A stretch of DNA of 62,028 nucleotides from an uncultured Gammaproteobacteria bacterium (GCA_964540285.1 CAZILW010000002.1:1-62028), one strand, 5' to 3'. Positions 8,732-49,571 are shown, counted from the first letter of the stretch. Translations and numbers: made by a program. Notes: generated by a model from the sequence alone, not told the origin.

Positions 8732-8944
8732 ATGAAAAAAGTTGCAAAGAAACCAGTGGCTAAAAAGAAAGTTGCAAAAAAGGTTGTAAAGAAAACTGTA
8801 AAAAAAGTTGTAAAGAAAGTTGCAAAGAAACCAGTGGCTAAAAAGAAAGTTGCAAAGAAAGTTGCAAAGAAAGTTGCAAAGAAAGTTGCAAAAAAACCAG
8901 TGGCTAAAAAGAAAGTTGCAAAGAAAGTTGCAAAAAAGAAATAG
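8732..8944 (+). CDS. histone H1-like lysine-rich repeat protein (70 aa)
   Basis: Almost entirely KKVA / KKPVAKKKVAKK repeats, resembling bacterial Hc1/H1-like nucleoid proteins. Own promoter and terminator. Confidence 0.7.
   Translation: MKKVAKKPVAKKKVAKKVVKKTVKKVVKKVAKKPVAKKKVAKKVAKKVAKKVAKKPVAKKKVAKKVAKKK
8741..8938 (+). repeat. coding tandem repeat (12-nt unit AAGAAAGTTGCA; ~36-nt super-unit x3)
   Basis: GTTGCAAAGAAACCAGTGGCTAAAAAGAAAGTTGCA recurs starting near 8741, 8819 and 8885, with runs of the 12-nt unit between copies. Confidence 0.85.
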
Positions 8945-13978: not shown

Positions 13979-15346
13979 ATGAAAAAAAAGCTAATCTCTT
14001 TGTTTTTGATTTTTATATTTTTATTAACTGTTGGGGCTGGATGTAAAAAACCAACAATGCAAGAATCCGTTAAGCCAGTGACTCTTAACTATTGGAGAGT
14101 TTATGACGGTAGAGATGACTTTGCTGAAATTATTGCTAAATATAATGCTCAACATCCTTATGTTACGATTAATTACAGAAAACTTAGGTATGATGAATAT
14201 GAAGAGGCTCTTTTAAATGCTTTTGCTGAGGACCGCGGACCTGATATTTTTTCTATACATAATACTTGGGTTAGAAAATATGAGAGCAAATTGGAGCCAA
14301 TGCCAGCTCAGACAACAATGGTTTTTCCAGTTACTCAAGGATCTATTAAAAAAGAAGTGGTTCCAGAGTTTAGAACCTCAAGAAGTTTGACTCTTAGAGA
14401 TTTAAGGCAGGGCTTTGTTGATGTTGTTTATTCAGATGTTGTTTTGAATGATAAAATTTATGGATTGCCATTGTCAGTTGATACTTTAGCGATGTATTAT
14501 AATCAAGATTTATTTGATCAGGCCGGGATTACTGACATTCCCAGATATTGGAATCGTGATTTTCAACAAATGGTTAAAAAATTAACCAAACAGGATTTAA
14601 AAGGCAATATTTTACAATCAGGTGTTGCTTTAGGTGGGGGTAAAAATATAGAAAGATATAGTGATATTTTGGCAGTTTTGATGATGCAAAATGGAGCCAA
14701 TATGATGAGTGATGCTGGGCAGGTTCTTTTTCAGACCATTCCAAGTGCTTTTCAAGGACAGAGCTATAACCCAGGCTTAATGGCGTTAAGATTTTATACT
14801 GATTTTGCTAACCCCATTAAAGAAGTTTATTGTTGGAATAATGGTTTAGAAAACTCAGTTGATCTTTTCGCTTCTGGAAAATTAGCTATTATGTTTGGCT
14901 ATTCTTATCATTTACCAACAATCAAAACTAAAGCACCAAAACTTAATTTTTTAGTTGAACCACTGCCCCAGATTGAGGGTTCGGTATCTCCTATTAATGT
15001 AGCTAATTATTGGGTTGAATCTGTTTCTAAAAAGAGTTTATATAAGAATGAGGCTTGGGATTTTATTCAATTTATGACTAGAGCAGATAATGTTTCTACT
15101 TATTTAAAAAAGACAAAAAAGCCAACGGCTCTTAGAGCTTTAATTAGCACTCAAAGAGACGATTTGGAAATAGGGGTATTTGCTGAACAAGTTTTAACTT
15201 CTAAAAGTTGGTATAGAGGAAAGAACCCAAATTTAGCAGAAAATTTTTTAGCCGACATGATTCAGGCGGTTTTAGAAGATACTGAAAATAAGACAATTGA
15301 ATTAATGAATTTTTATGCCAATAGAATACAACAAACAGTTAATTAA
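13979..15346 (+). CDS. extracellular solute-binding lipoprotein (ABC-type sugar SBP family)
   Basis: Lipobox LTVGAGC, and SBP_bac_1-like length and motifs (LNYWRVYDG..., IPRYWN). No permease or ATPase gene is adjacent. Confidence 0.75.
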   Translation: MKKKLISLFLIFIFLLTVGAGCKKPTMQESVKPVTLNYWRVYDGRDDFAEIIAKYNAQHPYVTINYRKLRYDEYEEALLNAFAEDRGPDIFSIHNTWVRKYESKLEPMPAQTTMVFPVTQGSIKKEVVPEFRTSRSLTLRDLRQGFVDVVYSDVVLNDKIYGLPLSVDTLAMYYNQDLFDQAGITDIPRYWNRDFQQMVKKLTKQDLKGNILQSGVALGGGKNIERYSDILAVLMMQNGANMMSDAGQVLFQTIPSAFQGQSYNPGLMALRFYTDFANPIKEVYCWNNGLENSVDLFASGKLAIMFGYSYHLPTIKTKAPKLNFLVEPLPQIEGSVSPINVANYWVESVSKKSLYKNEAWDFIQFMTRADNVSTYLKKTKKPTALRALISTQRDDLEIGVFAEQVLTSKSWYRGKNPNLAENFLADMIQAVLEDTENKTIELMNFYANRIQQTVN

Positions 15347-15351
15347 ACTTT

Positions 15352-15762
15352 ATGAAAAATAAAAAAAACTTTTTACTTTTAATAGCCTCTTTTTTTACCA
15401 TCTTTTTAATGAGCCAACCAGTTTTAGCCTCGATTGTTCCTGGAGCATCTCAGCAAAGTAGTAAATATGAGAAAGGTGATTATGAATTGAATGATGTTTT
15501 GATGGTTGGAATACAAATAACTAAATTTATATTGGGAATTGTGGGATCTCTGGCTTTATTATTTTTTGTTTATGGCGGGGTTATGTTTTTGATTTCAGCT
15601 GGTAGCAGTGATAAGGTTCAGCAGGCAAAAACAATTATTGTTAATGCTGTTATAGGTTTAATTATTGTTTTTACTAGTTATATCATAATTGAATTCGCTA
15701 TGGGAGCACTAGGCGTTACCTGGAGAGGAACTTCATCTAGTATAAGTAGATTGTTTTATTAA
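15352..15762 (+). CDS. TrbC/VirB2-type (T4SS) pilin-like protein, dispersed paralog
   Basis: Signal peptide, TM1, loop SAGSSDKVQQAKTII, then TM2. Same architecture as the 20572-23930 array. Confidence 0.65.
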   Translation: MKNKKNFLLLIASFFTIFLMSQPVLASIVPGASQQSSKYEKGDYELNDVLMVGIQITKFILGIVGSLALLFFVYGGVMFLISAGSSDKVQQAKTIIVNAVIGLIIVFTSYIIIEFAMGALGVTWRGTSSSISRLFY

Positions 15763-17035: not shown

Positions 17036-17395
17036 GTGGATAAGAAAAAAAATTTAGGTAAATTGGGAGAATTAATAGCTTTTTATTATTTGGAAAAAAG
17101 AAGCTATATTATTTTAGAAAAAAATTGGAAATTTAAGCATTTAGAAGTCGATATAATAGCTTCCTTTAAAGGGGAGCTAGTTTTTTTTGAAATAAAAACT
17201 AATCTTAATTTTTTGTTTCCACCGGAAGAAAACCTTAAGCGCAAACAAGTGAAAAATTTAAAAAAAGCCATGCAGTGTTATTGTCGGCTTAATTTTTTTG
17301 ATGTTGAAAATTGTCGTTTAGACTTGATTGTTATTAATTTAAATAACCACCTAAAGTTAAAAAAAATGTTTCACTATAAAAACATAATTTTTTAA
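17036..17395 (+). CDS. yraN: YraN family (UPF0102) endonuclease-like protein
   Basis: GELIAFYYLEKRSYIILEKNWK...EVDIIA...VFFEIKT pattern. GTG start. Confidence 0.75.
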   Translation: MDKKKNLGKLGELIAFYYLEKRSYIILEKNWKFKHLEVDIIASFKGELVFFEIKTNLNFLFPPEENLKRKQVKNLKKAMQCYCRLNFFDVENCRLDLIVINLNNHLKLKKMFHYKNIIF

Positions 17396-18132
17396 AAAGA
17401 TTTTTTTGATATTCTTTTTTTAAGTTTAATTAAATTGCCTATAAATTTGAAAGAGTCCTTTAAAAGTTTTATTTTGCTTTTTCTTTTTTCATATCTATTT
17501 TCTGACCAGTTAACCGGTATTTCTTTTATTTTTAGATTATTTCTCTTGGAAAAAATTAAAATTTCAGTATCAAAAAACCAATTATTATCTATGACCATTT
17601 CGGATATTTTGTTAAAACTGCTTTTTTTAATAGCTTTAAAACCACATTGTAGATCTGAAAAATTATGATTTAAAATAAGCTTAGATATAAATATGTACAT
17701 GCTTGAACTTAAATCTTTTATCCAGGATCGTTCTCTTTGTGACAGTGGAAGGCGACGAGAGCCAATTATTAGGTCGTAATTATTTTTTATTTCAAACATT
17801 AGGTCATTAATATTATCAAGAGATACAGCTAAATCAATATCCATATAAATAATATAGTCAGCCAAACTTTGGTTGATAGCTTCTTTAATCGCCCTTCCCT
17901 TGCCCCTGTCTTTTATTAGCAAGCTTATTATTTTTTCTTGTCTTGAGCTTATTTCTTTGGCTATTTCAGCTGAAGAATCGCTTGAACCATTTACAGCAAT
18001 TATTATTTGCCAGTCAAATTGGTAATTTTGAGAATATAAAAAAGACAAGAGTTTTAAAATATTTTTTTCTAAAAGTTGTTGTTCATTGTAAACTGGAATG
18101 ATAAAATCAATTTTCATATTTTTTTTGAGCAA
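17392..18132 (-). CDS. family 2 glycosyltransferase (polyprenyl-phosphate glycosyltransferase-like)
   Basis: IIPVYNE near the N-terminus and a DxD-like YMDIDL, giving a GT-A fold signature. 246 aa. Confidence 0.85.
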   Translation of the reverse strand: MLKKNMKIDFIIPVYNEQQLLEKNILKLLSFLYSQNYQFDWQIIIAVNGSSDSSAEIAKEISSRQEKIISLLIKDRGKGRAIKEAINQSLADYIIYMDIDLAVSLDNINDLMFEIKNNYDLIIGSRRLPLSQRERSWIKDLSSSMYIFISKLILNHNFSDLQCGFKAIKKSSFNKISEMVIDNNWFFDTEILIFSKRNNLKIKEIPVNWSENRYEKRKSKIKLLKDSFKFIGNLIKLKKRISKKSF

Positions 18133-18856
18133 CTACATATAAGCTCAGTCCAAAGGGAATTTTTATTCCCATTTTTATAAATTTATTTTCAAGATTTAAA
18201 ATTAAAAAAAGCATTTGATTAATTATTTTTGGTAATTTTTTGATTTCACTTTTATGTTTTAATTCTTTGTTTTTATTTCTTTGATAAATTTTTTTTAAAA
18301 TTCTAAGTAGAGCAATTAAAGGAAAAAGAAAGGAGTTCCAATAAATTATTTTTTTTATTCTAAAATTGCTTTTTTCTAATAATTTTTTAATTTCTTTTTT
18401 TTCATATCGACGATAATGCTCCATAGCCAAGTCATGCTCTCCAAATAATATTTTTTTAGATGGAACACTTAAAAAAAGATAAGCATCTTTGTTTAATAAA
18501 TTATTTATTTTTTGCAAGGCTTCAAAATCTTTTTCTATGTGCTCTAAAACATCAAAAAGACAAATAGCTCCATATTTTTTTTCAGTTTTAAAATCTTCTA
18601 GGCTAGAGTTAATTATTGTTCCATTTTTATTTTCTTTTATTGCTTGATTGTTTTTTTCAATTCCAGTGTAGTTACCGTGTTTTAAAATGGCGTCTTGTTG
18701 ATACCCGGTCCCACAGCCTATTTCTAAAATTTCTACTATCTCCCCTTTTTGATTTTTGTTTTTTAAATATTTAGACAATAAATAATCAATAAAATTTTTT
18801 CTAGCTTTATGCCAAAAATAGTCTGTTTTTATTTTTTTGTGGTCTTTATAATCCAT
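18107..18856 (-). CDS. class I SAM-dependent methyltransferase
   Basis: ILEIGCGTGY motif I and LFDVLEHI motif. Overlaps both neighbouring genes. Confidence 0.8.
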   Translation of the reverse strand: MDYKDHKKIKTDYFWHKARKNFIDYLLSKYLKNKNQKGEIVEILEIGCGTGYQQDAILKHGNYTGIEKNNQAIKENKNGTIINSSLEDFKTEKKYGAICLFDVLEHIEKDFEALQKINNLLNKDAYLFLSVPSKKILFGEHDLAMEHYRRYEKKEIKKLLEKSNFRIKKIIYWNSFLFPLIALLRILKKIYQRNKNKELKHKSEIKKLPKIINQMLFLILNLENKFIKMGIKIPFGLSLYVVAQKKYEN

Positions 18857-20480
18857 TTTTTTTAAAATAAATTAGAGCTATATCGTCTTCGTATATTTTT
18901 TCGAAATTGTTTTCTAAAAAATATATTAACTCGTTCTTGTTGTTTTTTGTTGGTTTGGCTATCTTTTTGTCTAACCATTTGGTTTTTTTGATTTTTGGTT
19001 TTTCAATAATAAATAACTCTAATTGGTATTCTTTTATTTTTTCTCTGATAATTTGCTCGTCTTTAAAGAAAAGAAGATATTCTTCTAGATAGCTGTGATT
19101 ATTTATTTTGACTTGTGGAAGCCGCCCATCAATAAAAATCTTTTTTTCTGGCCATTGATGAATTAGGTATCCTCCCCAACCATAGGAATTAAAAATTCTA
19201 GCATTATTTATTTCTGTTTGTCCTTTTAAAAACTCTAATGCCTGGCAAGGATATTCTTTACAATAGTAGGTAAAAGGATCTTTTATTATTTTAATATTAA
19301 TAGATAAGAGCAAAAAAACAAATAAAAATAGAAGACTAAAATAAAGCTTAATAAAAGTGTCAGTTATAGTTTTTTCTATTTTTAGATTTTTAATTATTTC
19401 TTTAATTTCGTCATATATAAAAACAGACAAAAAGGGCAGAGAGCTTATAAAAAGCAACGGAAAATGCCTTCTGGATTTTATAGCCATGGCTATAAAAAGA
19501 AAAATTAAAAAAAACTGCCAAAGAGAGTTTATTTCTTTTTTATTTTTATACATTAAAAAAGAAACTAGCAGAGAGGCGATTATAATTCCTATATATAATA
19601 TTTGCCAATAAAGAAAGGGCTCTTGGTATTGAGGAAGCCACTCTCCTATTATTTTAAGATAAGCATTATTTTTATAAGAAGATAAAAAATCAAAAAGTTC
19701 CAATCCGTAAGGATTAATTAGGGTAAAAAGTGAAGAAGTAAAAGCAAAGTATAAAAACATTTTTAATTCTCTTGCTTTTAATTTTTTATTAAAATTAAAA
19801 AAAGAGCTAATCTTGTTTACAAAGAAGTATTTACTTTTTAAATTAAAAATAATTAATTCAGCTATTTTTATTGCTAAATAAAAGTAAAGTATAAAAACGC
19901 CCAGCAAAAAGCCTCCGTGCATGTTTGCCCAGAGCCCAATTATTATAGGCAGTGGTATTAGTTTTTTCCAGGATTTTTTATTATTTTTAAGAGATTCATT
20001 TTCGAATTTGTAAATAATAATTAATTCTAATAACAGAAATAAGACTGTTAATTGTTGCACTCTGACTCCTAGGCTTGGCTGACAAGCGATTAATCCAAGA
20101 AGAAGAATTGGCAAAATAATAATTATTGATTTTTTTTCAAGGGTAAAATTTTTAACAATGAAGTGGTGAGCAGTTCCCAGGATTAAACAAAAAATTAAAG
20201 CGAATAAAGCGCTTAAGAAAAAATAAGAAGAATTGTTATAAATTAAAAAAATAACTGCATCTGACATCCACTCATGATTTACCCAGGTGTTATTCTCTTC
20301 TAAAACATAATTATAGTGATTTATTCTGTTTATTTGCTTGGTTTTAACAACTTCTTCTCCCACTTTCAAGTGCCAACCAAAATCTGGATCTAGGTAGCCC
20401 AATGAATTTTTTAGTAGTAATAAAAAAAATAGCAAATAAAAGGCTATAATAAATATTTGTTTAAAATTAGGTTTTTTCAT
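18846..20480 (-). CDS. large polytopic membrane protein, possible lipid-linked glycosyltransferase (GT-C-like)
   Basis: More than 10 hydrophobic segments plus a soluble C-terminal domain. Translationally coupled with the methyltransferase and GT2 genes. The family is not recognised with certainty. Confidence 0.5.
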   Translation of the reverse strand: MKKPNFKQIFIIAFYLLFFLLLLKNSLGYLDPDFGWHLKVGEEVVKTKQINRINHYNYVLEENNTWVNHEWMSDAVIFLIYNNSSYFFLSALFALIFCLILGTAHHFIVKNFTLEKKSIIIILPILLLGLIACQPSLGVRVQQLTVLFLLLELIIIYKFENESLKNNKKSWKKLIPLPIIIGLWANMHGGFLLGVFILYFYLAIKIAELIIFNLKSKYFFVNKISSFFNFNKKLKARELKMFLYFAFTSSLFTLINPYGLELFDFLSSYKNNAYLKIIGEWLPQYQEPFLYWQILYIGIIIASLLVSFLMYKNKKEINSLWQFFLIFLFIAMAIKSRRHFPLLFISSLPFLSVFIYDEIKEIIKNLKIEKTITDTFIKLYFSLLFLFVFLLLSINIKIIKDPFTYYCKEYPCQALEFLKGQTEINNARIFNSYGWGGYLIHQWPEKKIFIDGRLPQVKINNHSYLEEYLLFFKDEQIIREKIKEYQLELFIIEKPKIKKTKWLDKKIAKPTKNNKNELIYFLENNFEKIYEDDIALIYFKKNGL

Positions 20481-20571
20481 ATCTCTTGTTTAGTATAGCA
20501 AATATTGTTATTTTTTGAAATATATGTTATTATTTTATTGTAAAAATTAAAAACTAGAAAGGTGGTGACTT

Positions 20572-20964
20572 ATGAGAAAAAAAATTATTAGTTTATTATT
20601 AGTTTCTTTATTTGTTTTCCCAATCATTTCTTTGGCTTTGACTAACAACGCTCAAGCATCTAATGACGTTTTTGGTTTAAATTACGTTAAAAATGGCGAC
20701 GAGGGTATAGCTTTAGGTCAAAAAGATCCAAGAGAAATGGCCGCTCAAATTATAAATACAGTTTTAACTTTACTTGGTATCGTAGCTGTAGTTATAGTAT
20801 TGTTAGGAGGTTTCAAATGGATGACTGCTGCTGGTAACGAAGATAAAATTGGTGAAGCTAAAAAATTATTAGGAGCCGGAGTTGTCGGTTTAGTAATCAT
20901 TTTAGCTGCTTGGGGAATCACAACCTTCGTTTTAAATACTTTAATGGACGCGACAAACAACTAG
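20572..20964 (+). CDS. TrbC/VirB2-type pilin-like protein, array copy 1
   Basis: Strong SD AAAGGTGGTGA, signal peptide, TM1, loop WMTAAGNEDKIGEAKKLL, TM2. Confidence 0.7.
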   Translation: MRKKIISLLLVSLFVFPIISLALTNNAQASNDVFGLNYVKNGDEGIALGQKDPREMAAQIINTVLTLLGIVAVVIVLLGGFKWMTAAGNEDKIGEAKKLLGAGVVGLVIILAAWGITTFVLNTLMDATNN

Positions 20965-21087
20965 AATATTTTATTTTAGTTTCTAAACTCGAATTTAGAA
21001 ATTGGCGCCCTATTTTATATAGGCGCCATGCTTTCTGAAATAATTAATTGTTTCAGAAAGCGTGGTGGATTTAGATATTTATTGATT

Positions 21088-21504
21088 ATGAAAAAAATAT
21101 TAGCAATTGTTTTTCTTTTAGCTTCATTTTTTTTGGCTAATTTTTCTTTGGCTACAAATAGTTGGGGACTAGACGATGTTGTAAATAACAAGCCAAAACT
21201 TAAAGAAGCTTTTAGCACTGAAGAGGTTAATAAGGGTAAGCCAGGCTATGAATATATTTTTGCTAGATCGGGTGTTTTAATTGGCTCAATACTTTCTTTT
21301 ATAGCTGTTGTTTTTATGATTTTGATAATTTATTCTGGAATACTGTGGATGACAGCCAGAGGAAATGAACAACAAGTTGAAAAGGCTAAAAATTTAATAA
21401 TTCAAGCTATTATTGGCTTGATTATTGTATTATCGGCTTATGTCATAACTAGTTTTATAGGAAGCGTTTTTAATGGAAGTAACTCAATAGTTTCTTCTGA
21501 GTAG
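21088..21504 (+). CDS. TrbC/VirB2-type pilin-like protein, array copy 2
   Basis: Start moved to the Met giving signal peptide MKKILAIVFLLASFF. Core motif WMTARGNEQQVEKAKNLI flanked by two TM helices. Confidence 0.7.
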   Translation: MKKILAIVFLLASFFLANFSLATNSWGLDDVVNNKPKLKEAFSTEEVNKGKPGYEYIFARSGVLIGSILSFIAVVFMILIIYSGILWMTARGNEQQVEKAKNLIIQAIIGLIIVLSAYVITSFIGSVFNGSNSIVSSE

Positions 21505-21520
21505 TAAAATTAATATATTT

Positions 21521-22243
21521 ATGAAAAAAATACTTTTATTATTCTTATTAACATTTTTTTTTACGATACCTTTTGTTTCTTTCGCTGGGGGTGATTATGG
21601 ACTAACTAAGACTATCGCTAAGGGAAATTTACCTTTGGTTTTTAATGAAGATAAAAGTGATATAGTAGCAAGTGTTGGTGGTGTTGTTGGCATAATACTT
21701 TCTTTTGTCGGACTGCTATTTTTAATTTTAATAGTCTACTCTGGAATAATGTGGATGACTGCTTCTGGTAATGATCAGCAGATTGATAAGTCTAAAAAAA
21801 CTATGATTTGGGCGGTTATTGGAATTGTTTGCATATTTGCATCCTTTGCTGCTGTTCAGTTTATAGGCGAGCAATCTACTAAGCCTGTTTTTGTTGATGA
21901 AACAAACAGTCCCAGCGTAGATGATAATCAATCAGCAAACAATGAGCAAGCCGAACAATTAACTCTTTCTGAGGCTGAGCAAATATATTTAAGTCAGTGT
22001 ATTAAAAATGGAGATTATGTGGAGGCTAATTCTTGGTCTAATGAGTGGAGTGGTTTTAGTGATGATGGAAATATGAATTGGGGTGGAGGGCAGTTTGTTC
22101 AATTTTCTCAAGAACTGTGTTTGTGTTTTATGGGAAAATCTGATGGAAGAAATTGTAAATTGATATTGTGTGAGCATGATTCTGAAATTGACAAACTTTC
22201 AGGCGGAAGCGGCTTTGATTGTGTTAGGCTGTATGGACAATAA
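21521..22243 (+). CDS. TrbC/VirB2-type pilin-like protein with Cys-rich C-terminal extension, array copy 3
   Basis: Core motif WMTASGNDQQIDKSKKTM and two TM helices, followed by a ~110-aa tail with 7 Cys. Confidence 0.7.
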   Translation: MKKILLLFLLTFFFTIPFVSFAGGDYGLTKTIAKGNLPLVFNEDKSDIVASVGGVVGIILSFVGLLFLILIVYSGIMWMTASGNDQQIDKSKKTMIWAVIGIVCIFASFAAVQFIGEQSTKPVFVDETNSPSVDDNQSANNEQAEQLTLSEAEQIYLSQCIKNGDYVEANSWSNEWSGFSDDGNMNWGGGQFVQFSQELCLCFMGKSDGRNCKLILCEHDSEIDKLSGGSGFDCVRLYGQ

Positions 22244-22253
22244 TTTTAATTTT

Positions 22254-22640
22254 ATGAGAAAGATTAGTAAATATATAGTTATTTTTTGTCTAGCCCTTTT
22301 GTTTTTTCCGGGACATGTTTTTTCTTTTGACTTTTCAGCTGATTCCGGTTTAAATTCAGCTGCCAAAAAAACAGGTCATTCCGATTTGAAAATATTTAAA
22401 GATAGTAGTTCAATAGAGTCTTCAGTTGGCTTAATTATACAAACTATAATTTCTTTTATTGGGGTTGTTTTTGTGATTTTACTTGTTTATGGTGGAATTT
22501 TGTGGATGACAGCCAAAGGAAATGATCAACAAGTTGATAAAGCTAAAAAAATAATAGTAGAGTCAATTATTGGTTTGTTTGTTGTGGTTAGTGCTTATGC
22601 TATAAGTATTTTAGTCATTAGCGCTTTTAATTTTCAATAA
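22254..22640 (+). CDS. TrbC/VirB2-type pilin-like protein, array copy 4
   Basis: Start moved to MRKISKYIVIF (signal peptide). Core motif WMTAKGNDQQVDKAKKII. Confidence 0.7.
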   Translation: MRKISKYIVIFCLALLFFPGHVFSFDFSADSGLNSAAKKTGHSDLKIFKDSSSIESSVGLIIQTIISFIGVVFVILLVYGGILWMTAKGNDQQVDKAKKIIVESIIGLFVVVSAYAISILVISAFNFQ

Positions 22641-22650
22641 ATATTTTTTT

Positions 22651-23061
22651 ATGGTTTTTTTTAAAAAAAATAAAATATTTTTTTTATCTTTGTTTCTGTC
22701 CTTGTTTTTATTACCCAGCATTTCTTTTGCTTTTGGCAATTTAAGCGATTCTTTTTCTTCTGGTAGAACAAAGTATTCGGCTCAGAAAATGGGTTTTAAA
22801 TCATATGACAGCGTTCAAACACCAGAAACTGTTGTGGGGGTAATTATTTCGACAATTTTAGGCTTTCTGGGAGTTATTTTTGGTATTTTAATTATTTATG
22901 GAGGGTTTTTATGGATGACTGCTGGTGGAAATGACCAAGAAGTAGATAAGGCCAAAAATATAATTAAAAACGCGGCAATTGGTCTTTTGGTTGTTTTGCT
23001 TTCTTATAGTTTGAGTTGGTTAGTCTTAAATATTTTTGTAAGCTCTGGACCAGAAATTTAA
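22651..23061 (+). CDS. TrbC/VirB2-type pilin-like protein, array copy 5
   Basis: Signal peptide; core motif WMTAGGNDQEVDKAKNII between two TM helices. Confidence 0.7.
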   Translation: MVFFKKNKIFFLSLFLSLFLLPSISFAFGNLSDSFSSGRTKYSAQKMGFKSYDSVQTPETVVGVIISTILGFLGVIFGILIIYGGFLWMTAGGNDQEVDKAKNIIKNAAIGLLVVLLSYSLSWLVLNIFVSSGPEI

Positions 23062-23083
23062 AATTAAAATTTAAATAATAACT

Positions 23084-23476
23084 ATGTTAAAAAAAACTGT
23101 TAAACAATTCTCTTTTATTTTAATTCTAACAGCCATGCTGACCTTACCTTTTTTAGCTTTGGCACAAATAAGCAATTCTAAAATAACTGATCGATTAAAA
23201 AATACAGGAACTTCAGCTGGTTTTTCTTCTGCTGATGAAACAACATTGGCCACAATTATTGGAAGGGTTGTTAATACCGCTCTGTCTTTTTTAGGTATAA
23301 TTTTTATAATACTTATTATTTTGGGTGGTTATCAATGGATGACTGCTGGCGGAAATGAAGATCAAGTCACTCAGGCTAAGGGTCGAATAAAAAATGCGAT
23401 TATTGGTTTAATTGTTGTAATTTCTGCTTGGTCAATTTGGTTACTTATTGATAATTATATTTTAAGAAAGTTATAA
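23084..23476 (+). CDS. TrbC/VirB2-type pilin-like protein, array copy 6
   Basis: Signal peptide; core motif WMTAGGNEDQVTQAKGRI between two TM helices. Confidence 0.7.
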   Translation: MLKKTVKQFSFILILTAMLTLPFLALAQISNSKITDRLKNTGTSAGFSSADETTLATIIGRVVNTALSFLGIIFIILIILGGYQWMTAGGNEDQVTQAKGRIKNAIIGLIVVISAWSIWLLIDNYILRKL

Positions 23477-23486
23477 TTTTGTTTTT

Positions 23487-23930
23487 ATGAAAAAATTTTT
23501 ATTAAAGCTTTTATTTGTTTTTTGTTTCTTTTCTTTTTTATTTCCTTTAAACATTAGCGCACAACAAAACGCTGAAGAAAGTGAGCAGTATATTGGAGGC
23601 ATGAAAAGAAAGATGGACAACCAGACAACAGCCTTTTTTGGAGAGTCTGGTTATTCTGGGGCTAGAGCAGATACAATATTGGGGACTATAATTAAAACTG
23701 TTTTATCTTTATTGGGTATAGTTTTTTTAGTTTTAATGATTTTTAGTGGTTATCAATGGATGACTGCTGGTGGAAATGAAGATCAAGTCACTCAGGCTAA
23801 AAGTCGAATAAAAAATGCGGTTATTGGGGTTATAATTGTTGTTATGGCCTATGCGATTACAGCTTTTGTTTTCAAGAATTTATCTGGAGGGTCAAGTCAA
23901 ATACAAACGACAGACCCTCAAAATCCTTAA
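23487..23930 (+). CDS. TrbC/VirB2-type pilin-like protein, array copy 7
   Basis: Signal peptide; core motif WMTAGGNEDQVTQAKSRI between two TM helices. Confidence 0.7.
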   Translation: MKKFLLKLLFVFCFFSFLFPLNISAQQNAEESEQYIGGMKRKMDNQTTAFFGESGYSGARADTILGTIIKTVLSLLGIVFLVLMIFSGYQWMTAGGNEDQVTQAKSRIKNAVIGVIIVVMAYAITAFVFKNLSGGSSQIQTTDPQNP

Positions 23931-23948
23931 AATTTTTTTATAAAAAAT

Positions 23949-23977
23949 AAAAGCGCTTTTTTAGGGCGCTTTTTTTG
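23949..23977. terminator. bidirectional intrinsic terminator between convergent genes
   Basis: Stem AAAAGCGC/GCGCTTTT with A-run and T-run flanks. Confidence 0.7.
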
Positions 23978-23985
23978 TTTTTTGT

Positions 23986-24705
23986 TTAGCGAGAACCAAC
24001 TACTATATAGTAGCCGACTTTTTCACCATCAAACTCATAATGATTGGTTAGGCTTAAATTAAAGTTTTTTGAGTTTGAAGCCTGAGTTCCATCATTTGAT
24101 GAGGCGATGTAGCTATAATCACCAGGGAGTAGGTTAACGTTAGTTTTTCCATTTCTTCTTACAAAAACAGCTTTTTCTTGACCGGTAAGTCTGTTTTTAA
24201 CAACAACTTGAATATCCTTATATCGGTATTCGTTGGAAATAACTACCTTTACCCCTGCTCCACTTGAGGCGGAGAATTGTGAGCCAAGATTGTCAGCATA
24301 CTTTTCAGTAAAATAAGCGTTTGCGTCTGCTTGTCTTACAGTGGCATAAGCACTTGCTCCTTTGTTTATGTTTGAGGTTTTTCCGGAAAAATTGCCACCG
24401 TGACCTTCAATTTGAACATTGGCACCAGCGATTCTTCTGTGATTAGATTGTTCCTCTTTTTCTGGTTTTTCGCTTCTCAAGGCCTGAGAAACAAGTCTGT
24501 CATACCTTTGATTGATGCTTTTTGTTTCCTTTTTTACAAATTTCTCTTTTTTGCTGGGACTGCTTATTTCATCAGCTCTCTCGTTAAGCATTTCAAGTTC
24601 TGCTTGACGGGATTCGTTAAGATTTTTTACAATCTCAAGGCTGTTTTGTGCAAATACTGACATTGACACAAAAATGGCTGCTAAAAAAATGATTGCTGTT
24701 TTCAT
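23986..24705 (-). CDS. hypothetical secreted protein (239 aa)
   Basis: Signal peptide MKTAIIFLAAIFVSMSVFA, a charged helical N-terminal half and a beta-rich C-terminal half. No family recognised. Confidence 0.6.
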   Translation of the reverse strand: MKTAIIFLAAIFVSMSVFAQNSLEIVKNLNESRQAELEMLNERADEISSPSKKEKFVKKETKSINQRYDRLVSQALRSEKPEKEEQSNHRRIAGANVQIEGHGGNFSGKTSNINKGASAYATVRQADANAYFTEKYADNLGSQFSASSGAGVKVVISNEYRYKDIQVVVKNRLTGQEKAVFVRRNGKTNVNLLPGDYSYIASSNDGTQASNSKNFNLSLTNHYEFDGEKVGYYIVVGSR

Positions 24706-48182: not shown

Positions 48183-49571
48183 ATGTTAAATTCAACAAAA
48201 AAAGCTTTTACCCTCATCGAACTCCTAGTAGTAATAGCCATTATTGGTATACTTGCGACTTTGGCTGTTGTCGCCCTACAACAGGCTCGCTCTCGAGCTC
48301 GTGATAGTAAAAGAATGGCTGATATTAAGCAGGTTCAAACTGCTTTAGAATTATTTTTTAATGAAAATAATAGATATCCCACCATCGATGAGTGGGAAAG
48401 TGGAACTATCTTTTCTAGTTCTACAGGTGAAATATTTATGCACTCTATCCCCTCGGCTCCTTATCCAGCTGATGGTATTTGTGACTCCGATCAAAATACT
48501 TTTTATTATCAAGTTGATGAAAATAATTCTGCTTATTCTATTTCTTTTTGTCTAGGTGGTAATATTTCTGGTTTATCTGAAGGGTTAAAATGTGCTACTC
48601 CCGGAGGAATAATTGATTATGATTGTTCGGCTGAGATTATTGAAGAGGATCCCCCTGTTTATGCTTTAATATATTCAGCTAGTACCGGGGGAACTATTAC
48701 GGGAAACATTAATCAAAATATTAATCAAGGAGAAAATGGATTAGAGGTTATTGCCCTGGCTAACATTGGTTATTCTTTTTCTCAGTGGTCTGACGGGTTG
48801 ACCACTGCCTCTAGAATAGATTTGAATGTTCAATCAAATATAGAAGTAACAGCTCAGTTTACAGCGAATACTTATACTCTAACTTTTAATCCTCAGTCAG
48901 GAACAGTTAGTCCTGTTAGTAAATCAGTTGTATATAATCAAGAGGTAGGAACACTTCCTGCTCCAACTAGAAGTGGTTATACTTTTTTAGAATGGAACAG
49001 TCAATCAGATGGAAGCGGTACAACTTATGCATCAAGCACTGTTTATAGTCTTGGCGATAATTCTACTATCTATGCTGTGTGGTGGGAAAATTTACAGATA
49101 GGAGATCTTTACGGTGGCGGCAAGGTTGCTTATATTTTAAAACAAGGAGATTCTGGATTTGAAGAGGGTCGACAAAAAGGTCTTATAATTAGTTTAACCA
49201 ATTTGCCCTCATCTACTTCTTATATAAGTTGGGGTTGTTCAAATGTTGCCATTAATACTGAGACTGCGCTTGGGTTTGGAAAATATAACACTGAATTAAT
49301 ATTATCGCTTTGTCCAACCGCACCATCTGCTAGTTTTTGTAATTCATATTCTGTAGATGGCTATGACGATTGGTATTTGCCTAGTAAAGATGAGCTTTAT
49401 AAAGCTTACTTGGCTAGAAATACTCTCGGAGGTCTTAATTATTATCATTGGTCATCTTCAAGTTTTAACAATCAAGAAGCTTGGAGGGTTTATTATCATA
49501 TTAGCAGCGGTGGTCTTAGTACTGTTAATAAAGTGGGTAATTTTTATATGAGATGTTTTAGATCTTTTTAA
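48183..49571 (+). CDS. type IV pilin-like protein fused to Listeria-Bacteroides repeat and DUF1566-like domains
   Basis: Prepilin motif KKAFTLIELLVVIAIIGILA. Repeats GYSFSQWSDG... and GYTFLEWNSQSDGSGTTY...YAVW. C-terminal GYDDWYLPSKDELYKAY...YWSSS, which is DUF1566/Lcl-C-like. Confidence 0.8.
   Translation: MLNSTKKAFTLIELLVVIAIIGILATLAVVALQQARSRARDSKRMADIKQVQTALELFFNENNRYPTIDEWESGTIFSSSTGEIFMHSIPSAPYPADGICDSDQNTFYYQVDENNSAYSISFCLGGNISGLSEGLKCATPGGIIDYDCSAEIIEEDPPVYALIYSASTGGTITGNINQNINQGENGLEVIALANIGYSFSQWSDGLTTASRIDLNVQSNIEVTAQFTANTYTLTFNPQSGTVSPVSKSVVYNQEVGTLPAPTRSGYTFLEWNSQSDGSGTTYASSTVYSLGDNSTIYAVWWENLQIGDLYGGGKVAYILKQGDSGFEEGRQKGLIISLTNLPSSTSYISWGCSNVAINTETALGFGKYNTELILSLCPTAPSASFCNSYSVDGYDDWYLPSKDELYKAYLARNTLGGLNYYHWSSSSFNNQEAWRVYYHISSGGLSTVNKVGNFYMRCFRSF

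What the first reader, a model, noticed from the sequence alone, without database searches (positions are those of the whole stretch)
20572..23930. Seven tandem TrbC/VirB2-type pilin-like paralogs with no T4SS machinery in 62 kb
Seven consecutive same-strand genes of 128-240 aa share one architecture. Each has a cleavable-looking signal peptide, a variable ~30-60-aa region, TM helix 1, a nearly invariant loop W-M-T-A-x-G-N-[DE]-x-[QE]-[VI]-x-x-[AS]-K, and TM helix 2. The loop variants are WMTAAGNEDKIGEAK, WMTARGNEQQVEKAK, WMTASGNDQQIDKSK, WMTAKGNDQQVDKAK, WMTAGGNDQEVDKAK, and WMTAGGNEDQVTQAK twice.

This is the topology of conjugative/T4SS pilins (TrbC/VirB2). No VirB4, VirB6, VirD4, relaxase or other T4SS component is visible anywhere in the window. 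Intergenic gaps are 9-123 nt, the first copy has the strongest SD in the window, and one terminator follows the last copy, so the array looks like a single operon.

The hypervariable mature N-terminal regions contrast with the fixed core. That suggests diversification of a surface-exposed part, for example antigenic or host-range variation in an epibiotic lifestyle, or heteropolymer assembly.
Basis: partly seen in the sequence, partly recalled or inferred. Interest (0 to 1): 0.75.

Follow-up and report, generated by a model that had tools for sequence, protein, structure and literature searches.

The report
Patescibacterial VirB2-like pilin gene array
This is a seven-gene operon of VirB2-like secretion-system pilins in a Falkowbacteria (Patescibacteria) chromosome; such arrays were already described in 2023-2025, and this one looks like a fixed set of one major and six minor subunits rather than a variation cassette.

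Summary
Seven same-strand genes at 20572-23930 share one plan: signal peptide, 30-40 aa N-region, helix, WMTAxGN loop, helix. All pass Pfam PF18895 (T4SS_pilin).

A profile of gene 1 aligns with true VirB2/TrbC pilins (hhalign E 7.8e-6). No VirB4, VirB6, VirD4 or relaxase is in the 62 kb. None lies within 10 kb of 79 related arrays either.

This is a known kind. Quinonero-Coronel et al. 2025 list 441 such arrays. Wang et al. 2023 found six tandem PF18895 genes essential in Southlakia. In a related Falkowbacteria genome, VirB4 and TrsD lie about 200 genes from the pilin genes.

The diversification reading fails. Each paralog has a same-position ortholog across many species. The array is identical in eight metagenome contigs. 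dN/dS stays below 0.5.

Gene 1 stands apart and is probably the major subunit:
- 98% amino-acid identity to orthologs, with low dS.
- Strong codon bias.
- A conserved promoter-like region and Shine-Dalgarno site.
- A covarying three-hairpin RNA element after its stop codon.

Possibly new side observations are a conserved sugar-binding lipoprotein gene linked to the array and GT-C glycosyltransferase neighbours. Interest is modest.

The parts
20505..20571 (+). Promoter-like site (TTGTTA, 17 nt spacer, TG-TATTAT) and 5'UTR ending in the Shine-Dalgarno sequence AAAGGTGGTGA (20558-20568) upstream of gene 1
   Evidence: The promoter scan found this site, but the scan as a whole is not above chance. 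The 75 nt upstream of the start codon are almost invariant in 5 species, and the motif AAAACTAGAAAGGTGGTGA is invariant in 15 or more species.
20572..20964 (+). P1, 130 aa, putative major VirB2-like pilin
   Evidence: PF18895 at 41.1 bits. Orthologs in L011 and L038 are 98% identical, with dS 0.15-0.24 against about 1 for neighbouring genes. The C-ending fraction at NNY codons is 0.52, the highest in the window. hhalign against VirB2/TrbC gives E 7.8e-6. The AF2 model is a helical hairpin.
20980..21063 (+). Intercistronic RNA element of three hairpins: H1 20980-21001, H2 21004-27, H3 21028-63
   Evidence: RNAalifold on 13 species predicts 32 pairs, 11 of them with compensatory changes. 98.6% of cells are paired against 42-52% when the partners are slid, the covariation score is 0.446 against 0.05-0.14, and 0 of 500 shuffles reach it. 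The single-sequence fold has z = -6.9. No Rfam family matches.
21088..21504 (+). P2, 138 aa, VirB2-like minor pilin paralog
   Evidence: PF18895 at 38.3 bits. A positional ortholog is present in related arrays.
21521..22243 (+). P3, 240 aa, pilin core plus a 118-aa Cys-rich C-terminal extension predicted to face outside
   Evidence: PF18895 at 28.4 bits. The extension occurs only in the closest relatives L011, L038, L013 and L012. The extension has no significant PDB match.
22254..22640 (+). P4, 128 aa, minor pilin paralog
   Evidence: PF18895 at 36.4 bits; start codon at 22254.
22651..23061 (+). P5, 136 aa, minor pilin paralog
   Evidence: PF18895 at 38.6 bits.
23084..23476 (+). P6, 130 aa, minor pilin paralog
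   Evidence: PF18895 at 52.1 bits and TrbC at 17 bits, the latter below threshold. Its core is 84% identical at nucleotide level to the core of P7.
23487..23930 (+). P7, 147 aa, minor pilin paralog; its C-terminal tail varies between strains
   Evidence: PF18895 at 42.9 bits. Strain L009 carries a different, Cys-rich tail beginning after position 23890.
23949..23983 (+). Terminator-like hairpin followed by a T-run at the end of the operon
15352..15762 (+). P0, the eighth, solo PF18895 paralog (loop FLISAGSSDKVQQAK)
   Evidence: PF18895 at 40.8 bits. It is conserved directly after the solute-binding protein gene in related loci.
13979..15346 (+). Sugar-type solute-binding lipoprotein (SBP_bac_1), a conserved genomic partner of the pilin genes
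   Evidence: Pfam SBP_bac_1 at 96.5 bits. It has a lipobox and matches sugar-binding SBPs in the PDB. A PF18895 gene follows it in 37 of 42 loci, and in the more distant lineages it heads the array.
18846..20480 (-). 544-aa polytopic membrane protein transcribed divergently from P1; distant GT-C (PMT_2-like) glycosyltransferase, not VirB6. This is context and its role in the system is unproven.
   Evidence: It lies next to the array in 28 of the species loci, most with a gap of about 90-150 nt. hhalign gives 96% probability and E 1.8e-9 to a PMT_2-hitting neighbouring family. It has no direct Pfam, NCBIfam or PDB hit.

Best explanation
**What it is.** The region is a chromosomal operon of a Candidatus Falkowbacteria bacterium (Patescibacteria, GTDB class ABY1). 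It encodes seven non-redundant VirB2-like pilin subunits of the Patescibacteria type IV secretion system.

**Shown steps.**
- The family assignment and the homology to VirB2.
- The operon layout.
- The age and fixed order of the paralogs.
- The special status of gene 1.
- The presence of VirB4 and TrsD elsewhere in related genomes.

**Inferred steps.** Each protein is exported by Sec and its signal peptide is cut. The protein then sits in the membrane as a helical hairpin, with both ends outside and the WMTAxGN..AK loop inside. A VirB4/TrsD/VirB6-type machine (MPF-FATA-like), encoded far away on the chromosome, extracts the subunits and assembles them into an extracellular fibre or wall-spanning conduit. 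In the one tested relative, this structure is required for growth on a host cell.

**Subunit roles.** P1 is the abundant structural subunit. It has its own conserved promoter and Shine-Dalgarno site, strong codon bias and near-frozen sequence. The three-hairpin RNA after its stop codon probably limits or tunes expression of P2-P7. P2-P7 are low-copy specialised subunits (initiation, tip or adaptor roles). Their outward-facing N-regions, and in P3 a Cys-rich C-terminal domain, carry lineage-specific surfaces.
For: **Family.**
- All seven genes pass the PF18895 cut-off.
- NCBI's annotation pipeline (PGAP) names close homologs 'pilin', and some orthologs about 70% identical also hit PF04956.
- hhalign of the P1 family against MPF-T VirB2/TrbC gives E 7.8e-6 and aligns DPxxM...G..WM.
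- The AF2 model is a helical hairpin behind a signal helix.

**Lineage.** The best genome matches are Falkowbacteria MAGs.

**Machinery elsewhere.**
- HGW-Falkowbacteria-1 (L012, a syntenic 7+1 array), RIFOXYA2_FULL_47_19 (L052), CG1_02_41_21 (L019) and GW2011_GWA2_38_13 (L089) are listed as VirB4-positive.
- In Falkowbacteria GW2011_GWF2_38_1205 the VirB2 genes are #589-595, and VirB4 and TrsD are #789-790.

**Function precedent.** The six tandem PF18895 genes SEML1_0014-0019 are each essential in Southlakia epibionticum Tn-seq.

**Fixed, non-redundant set.**
- Each window paralog best-matches the paralog in the same position in about 20 species. P1 scores 66-98% and the others 45-81%, against 23-40% between paralogs within the window.
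- 75 of 79 related loci carry 5 or more tandem copies.

**P1 as the major subunit.**
- dN is 0.01 and dS 0.15-0.24, against dS of about 1 in the flanking genes.
- The codon-bias measure is 0.52, against 0.03-0.20 for P2-P7 and 0.31-0.36 for EF-P, S6 and SSB.
- The upstream region and Shine-Dalgarno site are conserved.
- P1 is duplicated together with its promoter in L015 and L037.
- A covarying three-hairpin element follows it.
- P3-P7 have no Shine-Dalgarno site.
Against: - No T4SS ATPase or channel gene is in the window or within 10 kb of any of the 79 related arrays. The link to a T4SS in this lineage therefore rests on homology and on co-occurrence in genomes, not on gene neighbourhood.
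- The rest of this organism's genome could not be read.
- The structure search gave only non-specific helical-hairpin matches, the best at E 1.3. A sequence search of the PDB found nothing.
- The canonical TrbC model PF04956 is below threshold for all seven genes.
- No pilus made of PF18895 proteins has been seen in any of the papers read here.
- The major/minor division is inferred from sequence signals only.
- Essentiality of each Southlakia gene by Tn-seq could partly reflect polar effects.
Confidence: 0.62

Rival explanations
1. The array is a repertoire for antigenic or host-range variation. The paralogs would be alternative surface subunits, diversifying so that the epibiont can evade or match different host strains.
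For: - The exposed N-regions of P2-P7 evolve faster than the cores. Identity is 38-75% against 79-90% in comparisons with L011 and L038, and dN/dS is 0.23-0.47 against 0.05-0.17.
- One strain (L009) carries a different C-terminal tail on P7 and a different allele of the adjacent secreted protein.
- The same idea is raised in the literature.
Against: - Positional orthologs are conserved across about 20 species, with no turnover among close relatives.
- The whole array is 100% identical at nucleotide level in eight contigs from several metagenomes, with 1-2 SNPs in two more.
- dN/dS is below 0.5 in every region tested.
- No silent cassettes, invertible elements or long repeats were seen; all copies sit in one co-directional operon.
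- The most exposed-looking subunit, P1, is the most conserved gene in the neighbourhood.
- Each of the six Southlakia copies is essential, so they are not interchangeable.
Confidence: 0.13
2. In this lineage the PF18895 proteins do not work with a T4SS. They would be small bitopic envelope proteins acting with the linked sugar-binding lipoprotein and GT-C glycosyltransferases, for example as a membrane scaffold for nutrient capture or envelope glycan assembly.
For: - None of the 79 arrays has a VirB4-like ATPase within 10 kb.
- A sugar-type solute-binding lipoprotein gene is followed by a PF18895 gene in 37 of 42 loci, and it heads the array in distant lineages.
- GT-C-like genes flank the arrays: the 544-aa protein in 28 of the species loci and DUF2079 in about 10-11.
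- The fold search is non-specific.
- A solo PF18895 gene in Southlakia (SEML1_0024) is non-essential.
Against: - Profile-level homology to VirB2/TrbC includes the DP..M and WM motifs.
- In Saccharimonadia, and in 1135 assemblies overall, the same family lies beside virB4.
- Falkowbacteria relatives do encode VirB4, TrsD and VirB3 elsewhere in the genome.
- Conserved synteny with housekeeping genes such as PPDK and MFS shows that neighbourhood in these small genomes need not reflect function.
Confidence: 0.15
3. The copies are redundant duplicates kept for gene dosage of a single pilin.
For: In L015 and L037 the P1 gene is duplicated together with its promoter. The cores of P6 and P7 are 84% identical at nucleotide level.
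Against: The paralogs share only 23-40% identity. Each is held under purifying selection as a separate orthologous group. Only P1 carries the signals of high expression.
Confidence: 0.05

Closest known systems
Patescibacteria 'VirB2 arrays' (PF18895/PF04956), as catalogued by Quinonero-Coronel et al. 2025 (PMC12102498)
   Same: Tandem or near-tandem sets of 2-11 pilin genes with about 25% mean identity within an array. They are chromosomal, have no relaxase, and are often not next to virB4. The phylum is the same.
   Different: That survey reports arrays as most abundant in Microgenomatia and Saccharimonadia. For one Falkowbacteria genome it lists only 4 pilin genes. In the ABY1 relatives retrieved here, arrays of 5-12 are the rule. 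In the parts of that paper searched here, the solute-binding protein link does not appear, and no passage found describes positional orthology, a major subunit or the intercistronic RNA.
Southlakia epibionticum ML1 T4SS pilin series SEML1_0014-0019 (Wang et al. 2023, PMC10633639)
   Same: Six tandem PF18895 genes of 104-186 aa on one strand, plus one solo PF18895 gene elsewhere. The tandem genes are essential for epibiotic growth.
   Different: In Southlakia the array lies directly beside the VirB6-like, VirB4 and PrgI genes. Here it is embedded among housekeeping genes, with a solute-binding lipoprotein and GT-C genes nearby.
VirB2/TrbC pilins of MPF-T systems (Agrobacterium VirB2, Pfam PF04956)
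   Same: Long signal peptide, two hydrophobic helices joined by a short loop, and the shared motifs DPxxM before helix 1 and WM at its end. hhalign gives E 7.8e-6.
   Different: - The PF04956 score is below threshold.
- The loop is about 7 residues longer.
- The mature N-terminus carries about 25 extra residues.
- There are seven paralogs instead of one gene.
- The host is presumably a monoderm (from the literature).
- Cyclisation is unknown.
Mbov_0395 family pilin-like conjugal transfer protein of Mycoplasma ICEs (NCBIfam NF045849)
   Same: It is the best NCBIfam match for all seven genes, at 24-41 bits and covering nearly the whole 80-position model. It is a two-helix protein of a monoderm, MPF-FATA-type system.
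   Different: Only P3 reaches the cut-off of 40 bits. The Mycoplasma proteins are single-copy and belong to a mobile element.
Multi-copy virB2 in Bartonella and Anaplasma phagocytophilum (as cited in PMC12102498)
   Same: Several VirB2 paralogs occur in one genome.
   Different: Those are diderm pathogens, and their copies are thought to serve immune evasion. Here the copies are old, ordered and invariant within the species.

Membership tests
Pfam PF18895 T4SS_pilin | Score at or above the gathering cut-off of 26.6 bits | tested here: met
   The seven genes score 41.1, 38.3, 28.4, 36.4, 38.6, 52.1 and 42.9 bits. The eighth copy scores 40.8 bits.
Pfam PF04956 TrbC/VirB2 pilin | Score at or above the gathering cut-off of 27.9 bits | tested here: not met
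   The best score is 17.0 bits, for P6; the others score 14 bits or less, or do not hit. Some orthologs about 70% identical to P1 carry a precomputed PF04956 hit.
TrbC/VirB2 superfamily (remote homology) | Profile-profile similarity to bona fide VirB2/TrbC covering helix 1, the loop and helix 2 | tested here: met
   hhalign of A5 against A10 (7 annotated MPF-T VirB2/TrbC proteins from plasmids) gives 83.9% probability and E 7.8e-6 over 58 columns.
TrbC/VirB2 superfamily | Signal peptide followed by a two-helix hairpin | tested here: met
   Shown by the sequence features and by the AF2 model, which has helices 2-22, 53-85 and 90-127 at mean pLDDT 77. No signal-peptide predictor was available.
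TrbC/VirB2 superfamily | Structural match to solved conjugative pilins | tested here: inconclusive
   Foldseek against the PDB gave no hit with E at or below 0.001. The best matches are generic helical hairpins.
T4SS pilin (functional sense) | A VirB4-family ATPase and a VirB6-like channel encoded in the same genome | not testable with these tools
   Neither is in the 62 kb. The rest of this genome is not available. Relatives are VirB4-positive according to PMC12102498 Tables S1 and S3.
T4SS pilin (functional sense) | Polymerises into an extracellular pilus | not testable with these tools
   This needs microscopy or biochemistry. The papers read here speak only of a 'potential to elaborate conjugative pili'.
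Patescibacteria VirB2 array (PMC12102498) | Two or more PF18895/PF04956 genes in tandem or separated by one non-pilin gene, in a Patescibacteria genome | tested here: met
   Seven genes in tandem. The closest genomes are Falkowbacteria and other Patescibacteria MAGs.
NCBIfam NF045849 Mbov_0395 pilin-like conjugal transfer protein | Score at or above the cut-off of 40 bits | tested here: not met
   Six of the seven genes score 23.8-38.3 bits. Only P3 reaches 40.7 bits.
VirB6/TrbL (for the neighbouring 544-aa membrane protein) | Similarity to VirB6, TrbL or PrgH | tested here: not met
   It has no Pfam or NCBIfam hit. It is instead related to a PMT_2-like GT-C family (hhalign E 1.8e-9).

The most novel reading that the evidence does not exclude
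The ABY1-type array may be an obligate heteropolymer with a fixed parts list: one major pilin, five to six ordered minor pilins, and a linked sugar-binding lipoprotein. The lipoprotein would act as a host-glycan receptor or cargo-capture partner of the fibre. Stoichiometry would be set by a previously undescribed three-hairpin intercistronic RNA switch after the major pilin gene. On this reading the T4SS fibre of these epibionts is a nutrient- or host-sensing device, not a conjugative pilus.
Probability: 0.15. Interest if true: 0.65.

Novelty: new member of a known kind. Interest (0 to 1): 0.3.

Why it matters
The T4SS and its pilin series are among the few genes shown to be essential for the epibiotic life of Patescibacteria. 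What the system transports, and why it needs six or seven different pilins, is unknown.

This window adds no new kind of system. The comparative data do narrow the question:
- The paralogs form a conserved, ordered set with one dominant subunit. This points to a built heteropolymer rather than surface variation.
- It suggests which gene to tag or image first (P1).
- It flags a sugar-binding lipoprotein and a structured RNA as candidates for partner and regulator.

Tried and rejected
- **Sequence search of the PDB** with a profile of the paralogs found no hits even at E 10.
- **Foldseek of the P1 model against the PDB** gave only generic helical hairpins, so the fold cannot decide membership.
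- **VirB4-like proteins near related arrays.** Clustering all ORFs of 350 aa or more in 79 loci, plus a Walker-A scan, found only SMC, Mg-chelatase-like, UvrA-like, IF-2, Der and one FtsK-like protein (L083). No VirB4 was found.
- **The rest of this genome** could not be reached. The window's species is not among the genome representatives (best match 81%). The contigs that carry the exact proteins are 9.6 kb or shorter. I had no Patescibacteria VirB4 sequence to use as a query, so presence in relatives was taken from PMC12102498 Tables S1 and S3.
- **The 544-aa neighbour as VirB6** is rejected. It has no family hits and is related to a PMT_2-like GT-C family. It is not related to the DUF2079 family found beside other arrays.
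- **The C-terminal domain of P3** has only an insignificant cyanovirin-like match, E 0.15.
- **The first search for related loci attempt**, using all eight paralogs, failed because no stretch was conserved enough.
- **Internal promoters.** The promoter scan is not above chance in this AT-rich DNA (19 found against 16.5 expected), so none is claimed.
- **Small ORFs of 60-110 aa** outside the genes showed nothing T4SS-like on inspection.

Full report
**1. The observation**

Seven + strand ORFs fill 20572-23930. With the most plausible start codons they encode 130, 138, 240, 128, 136, 130 and 147 aa, separated by gaps of 123, 16, 10, 10, 22 and 10 nt. A six-frame motif search finds W-M-T-A-x-G-N once in each of the seven genes and nowhere else in the window. 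The alignment shows the shared plan: a signal-peptide-like N-terminus, 30-40 poorly alignable residues, helix 1, the loop, and helix 2. Paralogs share 23-40% identity. The description is therefore accurate.

Three additions follow.
- An eighth paralog with a degenerate loop (FLISAGSSDKVQQAK) lies at 15352-15762.
- The Shine-Dalgarno sequence of gene 1 is AAAGGTGGTGA at 20558-20568, and genes 3-7 have none.
- A terminator-like hairpin with a T-run lies at 23949-23983.

**2. Family**

All seven proteins, and the eighth, pass the gathering threshold of Pfam PF18895 'T4SS_pilin' (28-52 bits against 26.6). The classical TrbC/VirB2 model PF04956 reaches 17 bits at most, against a cut-off of 27.9. 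The best NCBIfam model is the Mycoplasma ICE 'pilin-like conjugal transfer protein' NF045849, mostly just under its cut-off.

To test the link to true VirB2, I took seven annotated VirB2/TrbC proteins from MPF-T plasmids. I compared their profile with a 55-sequence profile of the gene 1 family. hhalign gives 84% probability and E 7.8e-6 over 58 columns, aligning DPxxM before helix 1 and WM at its end.

An AlphaFold2 model of P1 (mean pLDDT 77) shows a signal helix, a low-confidence stretch at 23-52 and two long helices. Foldseek against the PDB returns only generic helical hairpins. A sequence profile search of the PDB returns nothing. The fold is therefore compatible with VirB2 but not diagnostic. 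NCBI's annotation pipeline (PGAP) already names close homologs 'pilin'.

**3. Whose genome, and where is the machinery?**

The window has about 30% G+C and is ordinary chromosome. It carries SMC, a P-type ATPase, PEP synthase/PPDK, Lgt, EF-P, SSB, S6, GlmS, Der, and NrdD with NrdR, plus four tRNAs. No ORF of 110 aa or more hits VirB4, VirB6, VirD4, relaxase or PrgI models (the same calls). The small ORFs add nothing on inspection.

The nearest genomes are Candidatus Falkowbacteria MAGs. L011 and L038 are about 80% identical for P6, and HGW-Falkowbacteria-1 (L012) is 62% identical. The many 'uncultured Gammaproteobacteria' record titles in that list are probably mislabels.

In the 79 related loci, each spanning up to 10 kb on either side, I found no VirB4-like ATPase at all.

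The literature settles what the window cannot. Table S1 of Quinonero-Coronel et al. 2025 scores four genomes as VirB4-positive, and all four carry arrays homologous to this one (L012, L052, L019, L089): HGW-Falkowbacteria-1, RIFOXYA2_FULL_47_19, CG1_02_41_21 and GW2011_GWA2_38_13. Their Table S3 shows, for Falkowbacteria GW2011_GWF2_38_1205, VirB2 genes #589-591 and #595 flagged 'VirB4 proximity: No'. VirB4 is #789, TrsD #790 and a VirB3-like gene #392. In this lineage, then, T4SS genes are scattered, and a 62-kb window without them is expected.

**4. Already known**

The same paper reports 441 arrays of 2-11 pilin genes in 383 assemblies, with a mean within-array identity of 25%. It proposes adaptation to different host strains. 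Wang et al. [quoted passage not shown] Their tables list six tandem PF18895 genes (SEML1_0014-0019), all scored essential, and a solo non-essential copy, SEML1_0024. A 2025 review repeats this.

**5. Variation or fixed set?**

An HMM built from the window paralogs finds 5 or more tandem copies in 75 of the 79 loci, with a median of 7.

Best-hit analysis shows colinearity. Window paralog k matches the paralog at position k in about 20 species. P1 is 98% identical in L011 and L038, 84-93% in L012 and L013, and 66-71% further out. P2-P7 are 45-81% identical to their positional orthologs. P3, with its 118-aa Cys-rich tail, exists only in the four closest species.

By region, the N-terminal stretch of P1 is 94% identical to its orthologs in L011 and L038. 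In P2-P7 the N-region is 38-75% identical, against 79-90% for the core. Pairwise dN/dS is 0.05-0.07 for the P1 N-region, 0.23-0.47 for the other N-regions and 0.05-0.17 for the cores. It never approaches 1.

Within the species, eight contigs from ENA, JGI and Logan assemblies are 100% identical to the window across the array, and two more differ by 1-2 SNPs. The only strain difference found begins at the last 12 codons of P7 and runs into the neighbouring secreted-protein gene.

These results argue against an actively diversifying repertoire. They favour an old set of specialised, non-interchangeable subunits, which also fits the essentiality of each copy in Southlakia.

**6. Gene 1 is different**

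Five lines of evidence set P1 apart.
- Against L011 and L038, P1 has dS of 0.15-0.24 where the flanking genes have 0.7-1.5.
- Its use of C-ending codons at NNY positions is 0.52. This compares with 0.03-0.20 in P2-P7 and 0.31-0.36 in EF-P, S6 and SSB, a standard sign of very high expression.
- The 75 nt upstream, which hold an extended -10-like element and the Shine-Dalgarno site, are nearly invariant in five species. The end of the 5'UTR is invariant in 15 or more.
- In L015 and L037 the gene is duplicated together with this upstream region.
- The P1-P2 spacer folds into three hairpins. Across 13 species 98.6% of cells pair, against 42-52% when the partners are slid. Eleven of 32 pairs show compensatory changes, and the covariation score exceeds all 500 shuffles.

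In the single-sequence fold, an extended third hairpin competes with the second and covers the GGUGG that precedes P2. No Rfam family matches.

I read this as one major subunit followed by an attenuating or stabilising RNA element, then six low-expression subunits. This is inference from sequence alone.

**7. Neighbourhood**

The 455-aa gene at 13979-15346 is a sugar-type solute-binding lipoprotein. Its stop codon is 5 nt before the solo paralog P0. In 37 of 42 loci with an ortholog, a PF18895 gene follows it. In the more distant ABY1 lineages, this pair directly heads the array. In the window's lineage about 5 kb seems to have been inserted between P0 and P1. No ABC permease is nearby. I found no mention of this link in the papers searched.

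The 544-aa membrane protein transcribed divergently from P1 is a distant GT-C glycosyltransferase, not VirB6. A DUF2079 GT-C-like gene follows arrays in other lineages. Whether these neighbours modify or partner the pilins is open.

**8. Verdict**

The finding is real and correctly typed, but it is an instance of a described feature of Patescibacteria. The apparent oddity, no T4SS nearby, is normal for this class. The diversification idea is not supported. Heteropolymer assembly with one major subunit is the best reading, at a confidence of about 0.6.

Interest is modest at 0.3. The side observations could merit a short follow-up: conserved order, the major-pilin signals, the RNA element and the sugar-binding lipoprotein link.

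Noticed in passing
window 20980-21063: A conserved three-hairpin RNA element lies between the first and second pilin genes. It shows strong covariation in 13 species and matches no Rfam family. An alternative pairing covers the GGUGG that precedes gene 2, so it may act as a switch.
   Followed up: partly
window 13979-15762; L043, L056, L074 and other related loci: An orphan sugar-type solute-binding lipoprotein gene is followed directly by a PF18895 pilin-like gene in 37 of 42 related loci. In distant ABY1 lineages this pair heads the pilin array. No ABC permease or ATPase is nearby.
   Followed up: partly
window 17392-20480 (- strand): An operon of a GT2 (GtrB-like) gene, a methyltransferase and a 544-aa distant GT-C glycosyltransferase is transcribed divergently from the pilin operon. 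The GT-C gene is adjacent to the array in 28 related loci, and DUF2079 GT-C-like genes flank arrays in other lineages. Pilin or envelope glycosylation is possible.
   Followed up: partly
window 20572-20964: Synonymous divergence of the first pilin gene is 5-8 times lower than in the flanking genes, and the C-ending fraction at its NNY codons is above that of the ribosomal protein S6, EF-P and SSB genes in the window.
   Followed up: yes
window 23890-24705; L009 1176-1544: A strain-level breakpoint was found. One metagenome contig matches the window (2 mismatches in 1175 nt) up to 23890. After that point P7 has a different, Cys-rich C-terminal tail, and the convergent secreted 239-aa protein is a different allele. 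That protein is only 44% identical between the window and L011, which makes it the fastest-evolving gene in the neighbourhood.
   Followed up: partly
window 21887-22240: The third pilin carries a 118-aa C-terminal extension with 7 cysteines that is predicted to face outside. It is present only in the four closest species and has no significant structural relative.
   Followed up: partly
window 48183-49571: A 462-aa type IV pilin-like protein has a prepilin N-methylation motif fused to Listeria-Bacteroides repeats and an Lcl C-terminal domain. It is likely a type IV pilus adhesin pilin, unrelated to the PF18895 genes.
   Followed up: no
window 8732-8944: A 70-aa ORF consists almost entirely of KKVAKK-type lysine/alanine repeats, resembling a histone H1-like or nucleoid protein.
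   Followed up: no
L015 7119-8501; L037: In some related species the major pilin gene is tandemly duplicated, two or three times, together with its promoter and 5'UTR.
   Followed up: no
L083 2205-4727: In one related locus an FtsK/SpoIIIE-type ATPase gene directly follows the pilin array. It was the only translocase-like ATPase found next to any of the 79 arrays.
   Followed up: no
loci: Many Patescibacteria MAG records are titled 'uncultured Gammaproteobacteria bacterium'. This looks like a taxonomic mislabel in the source records.
   Followed up: no
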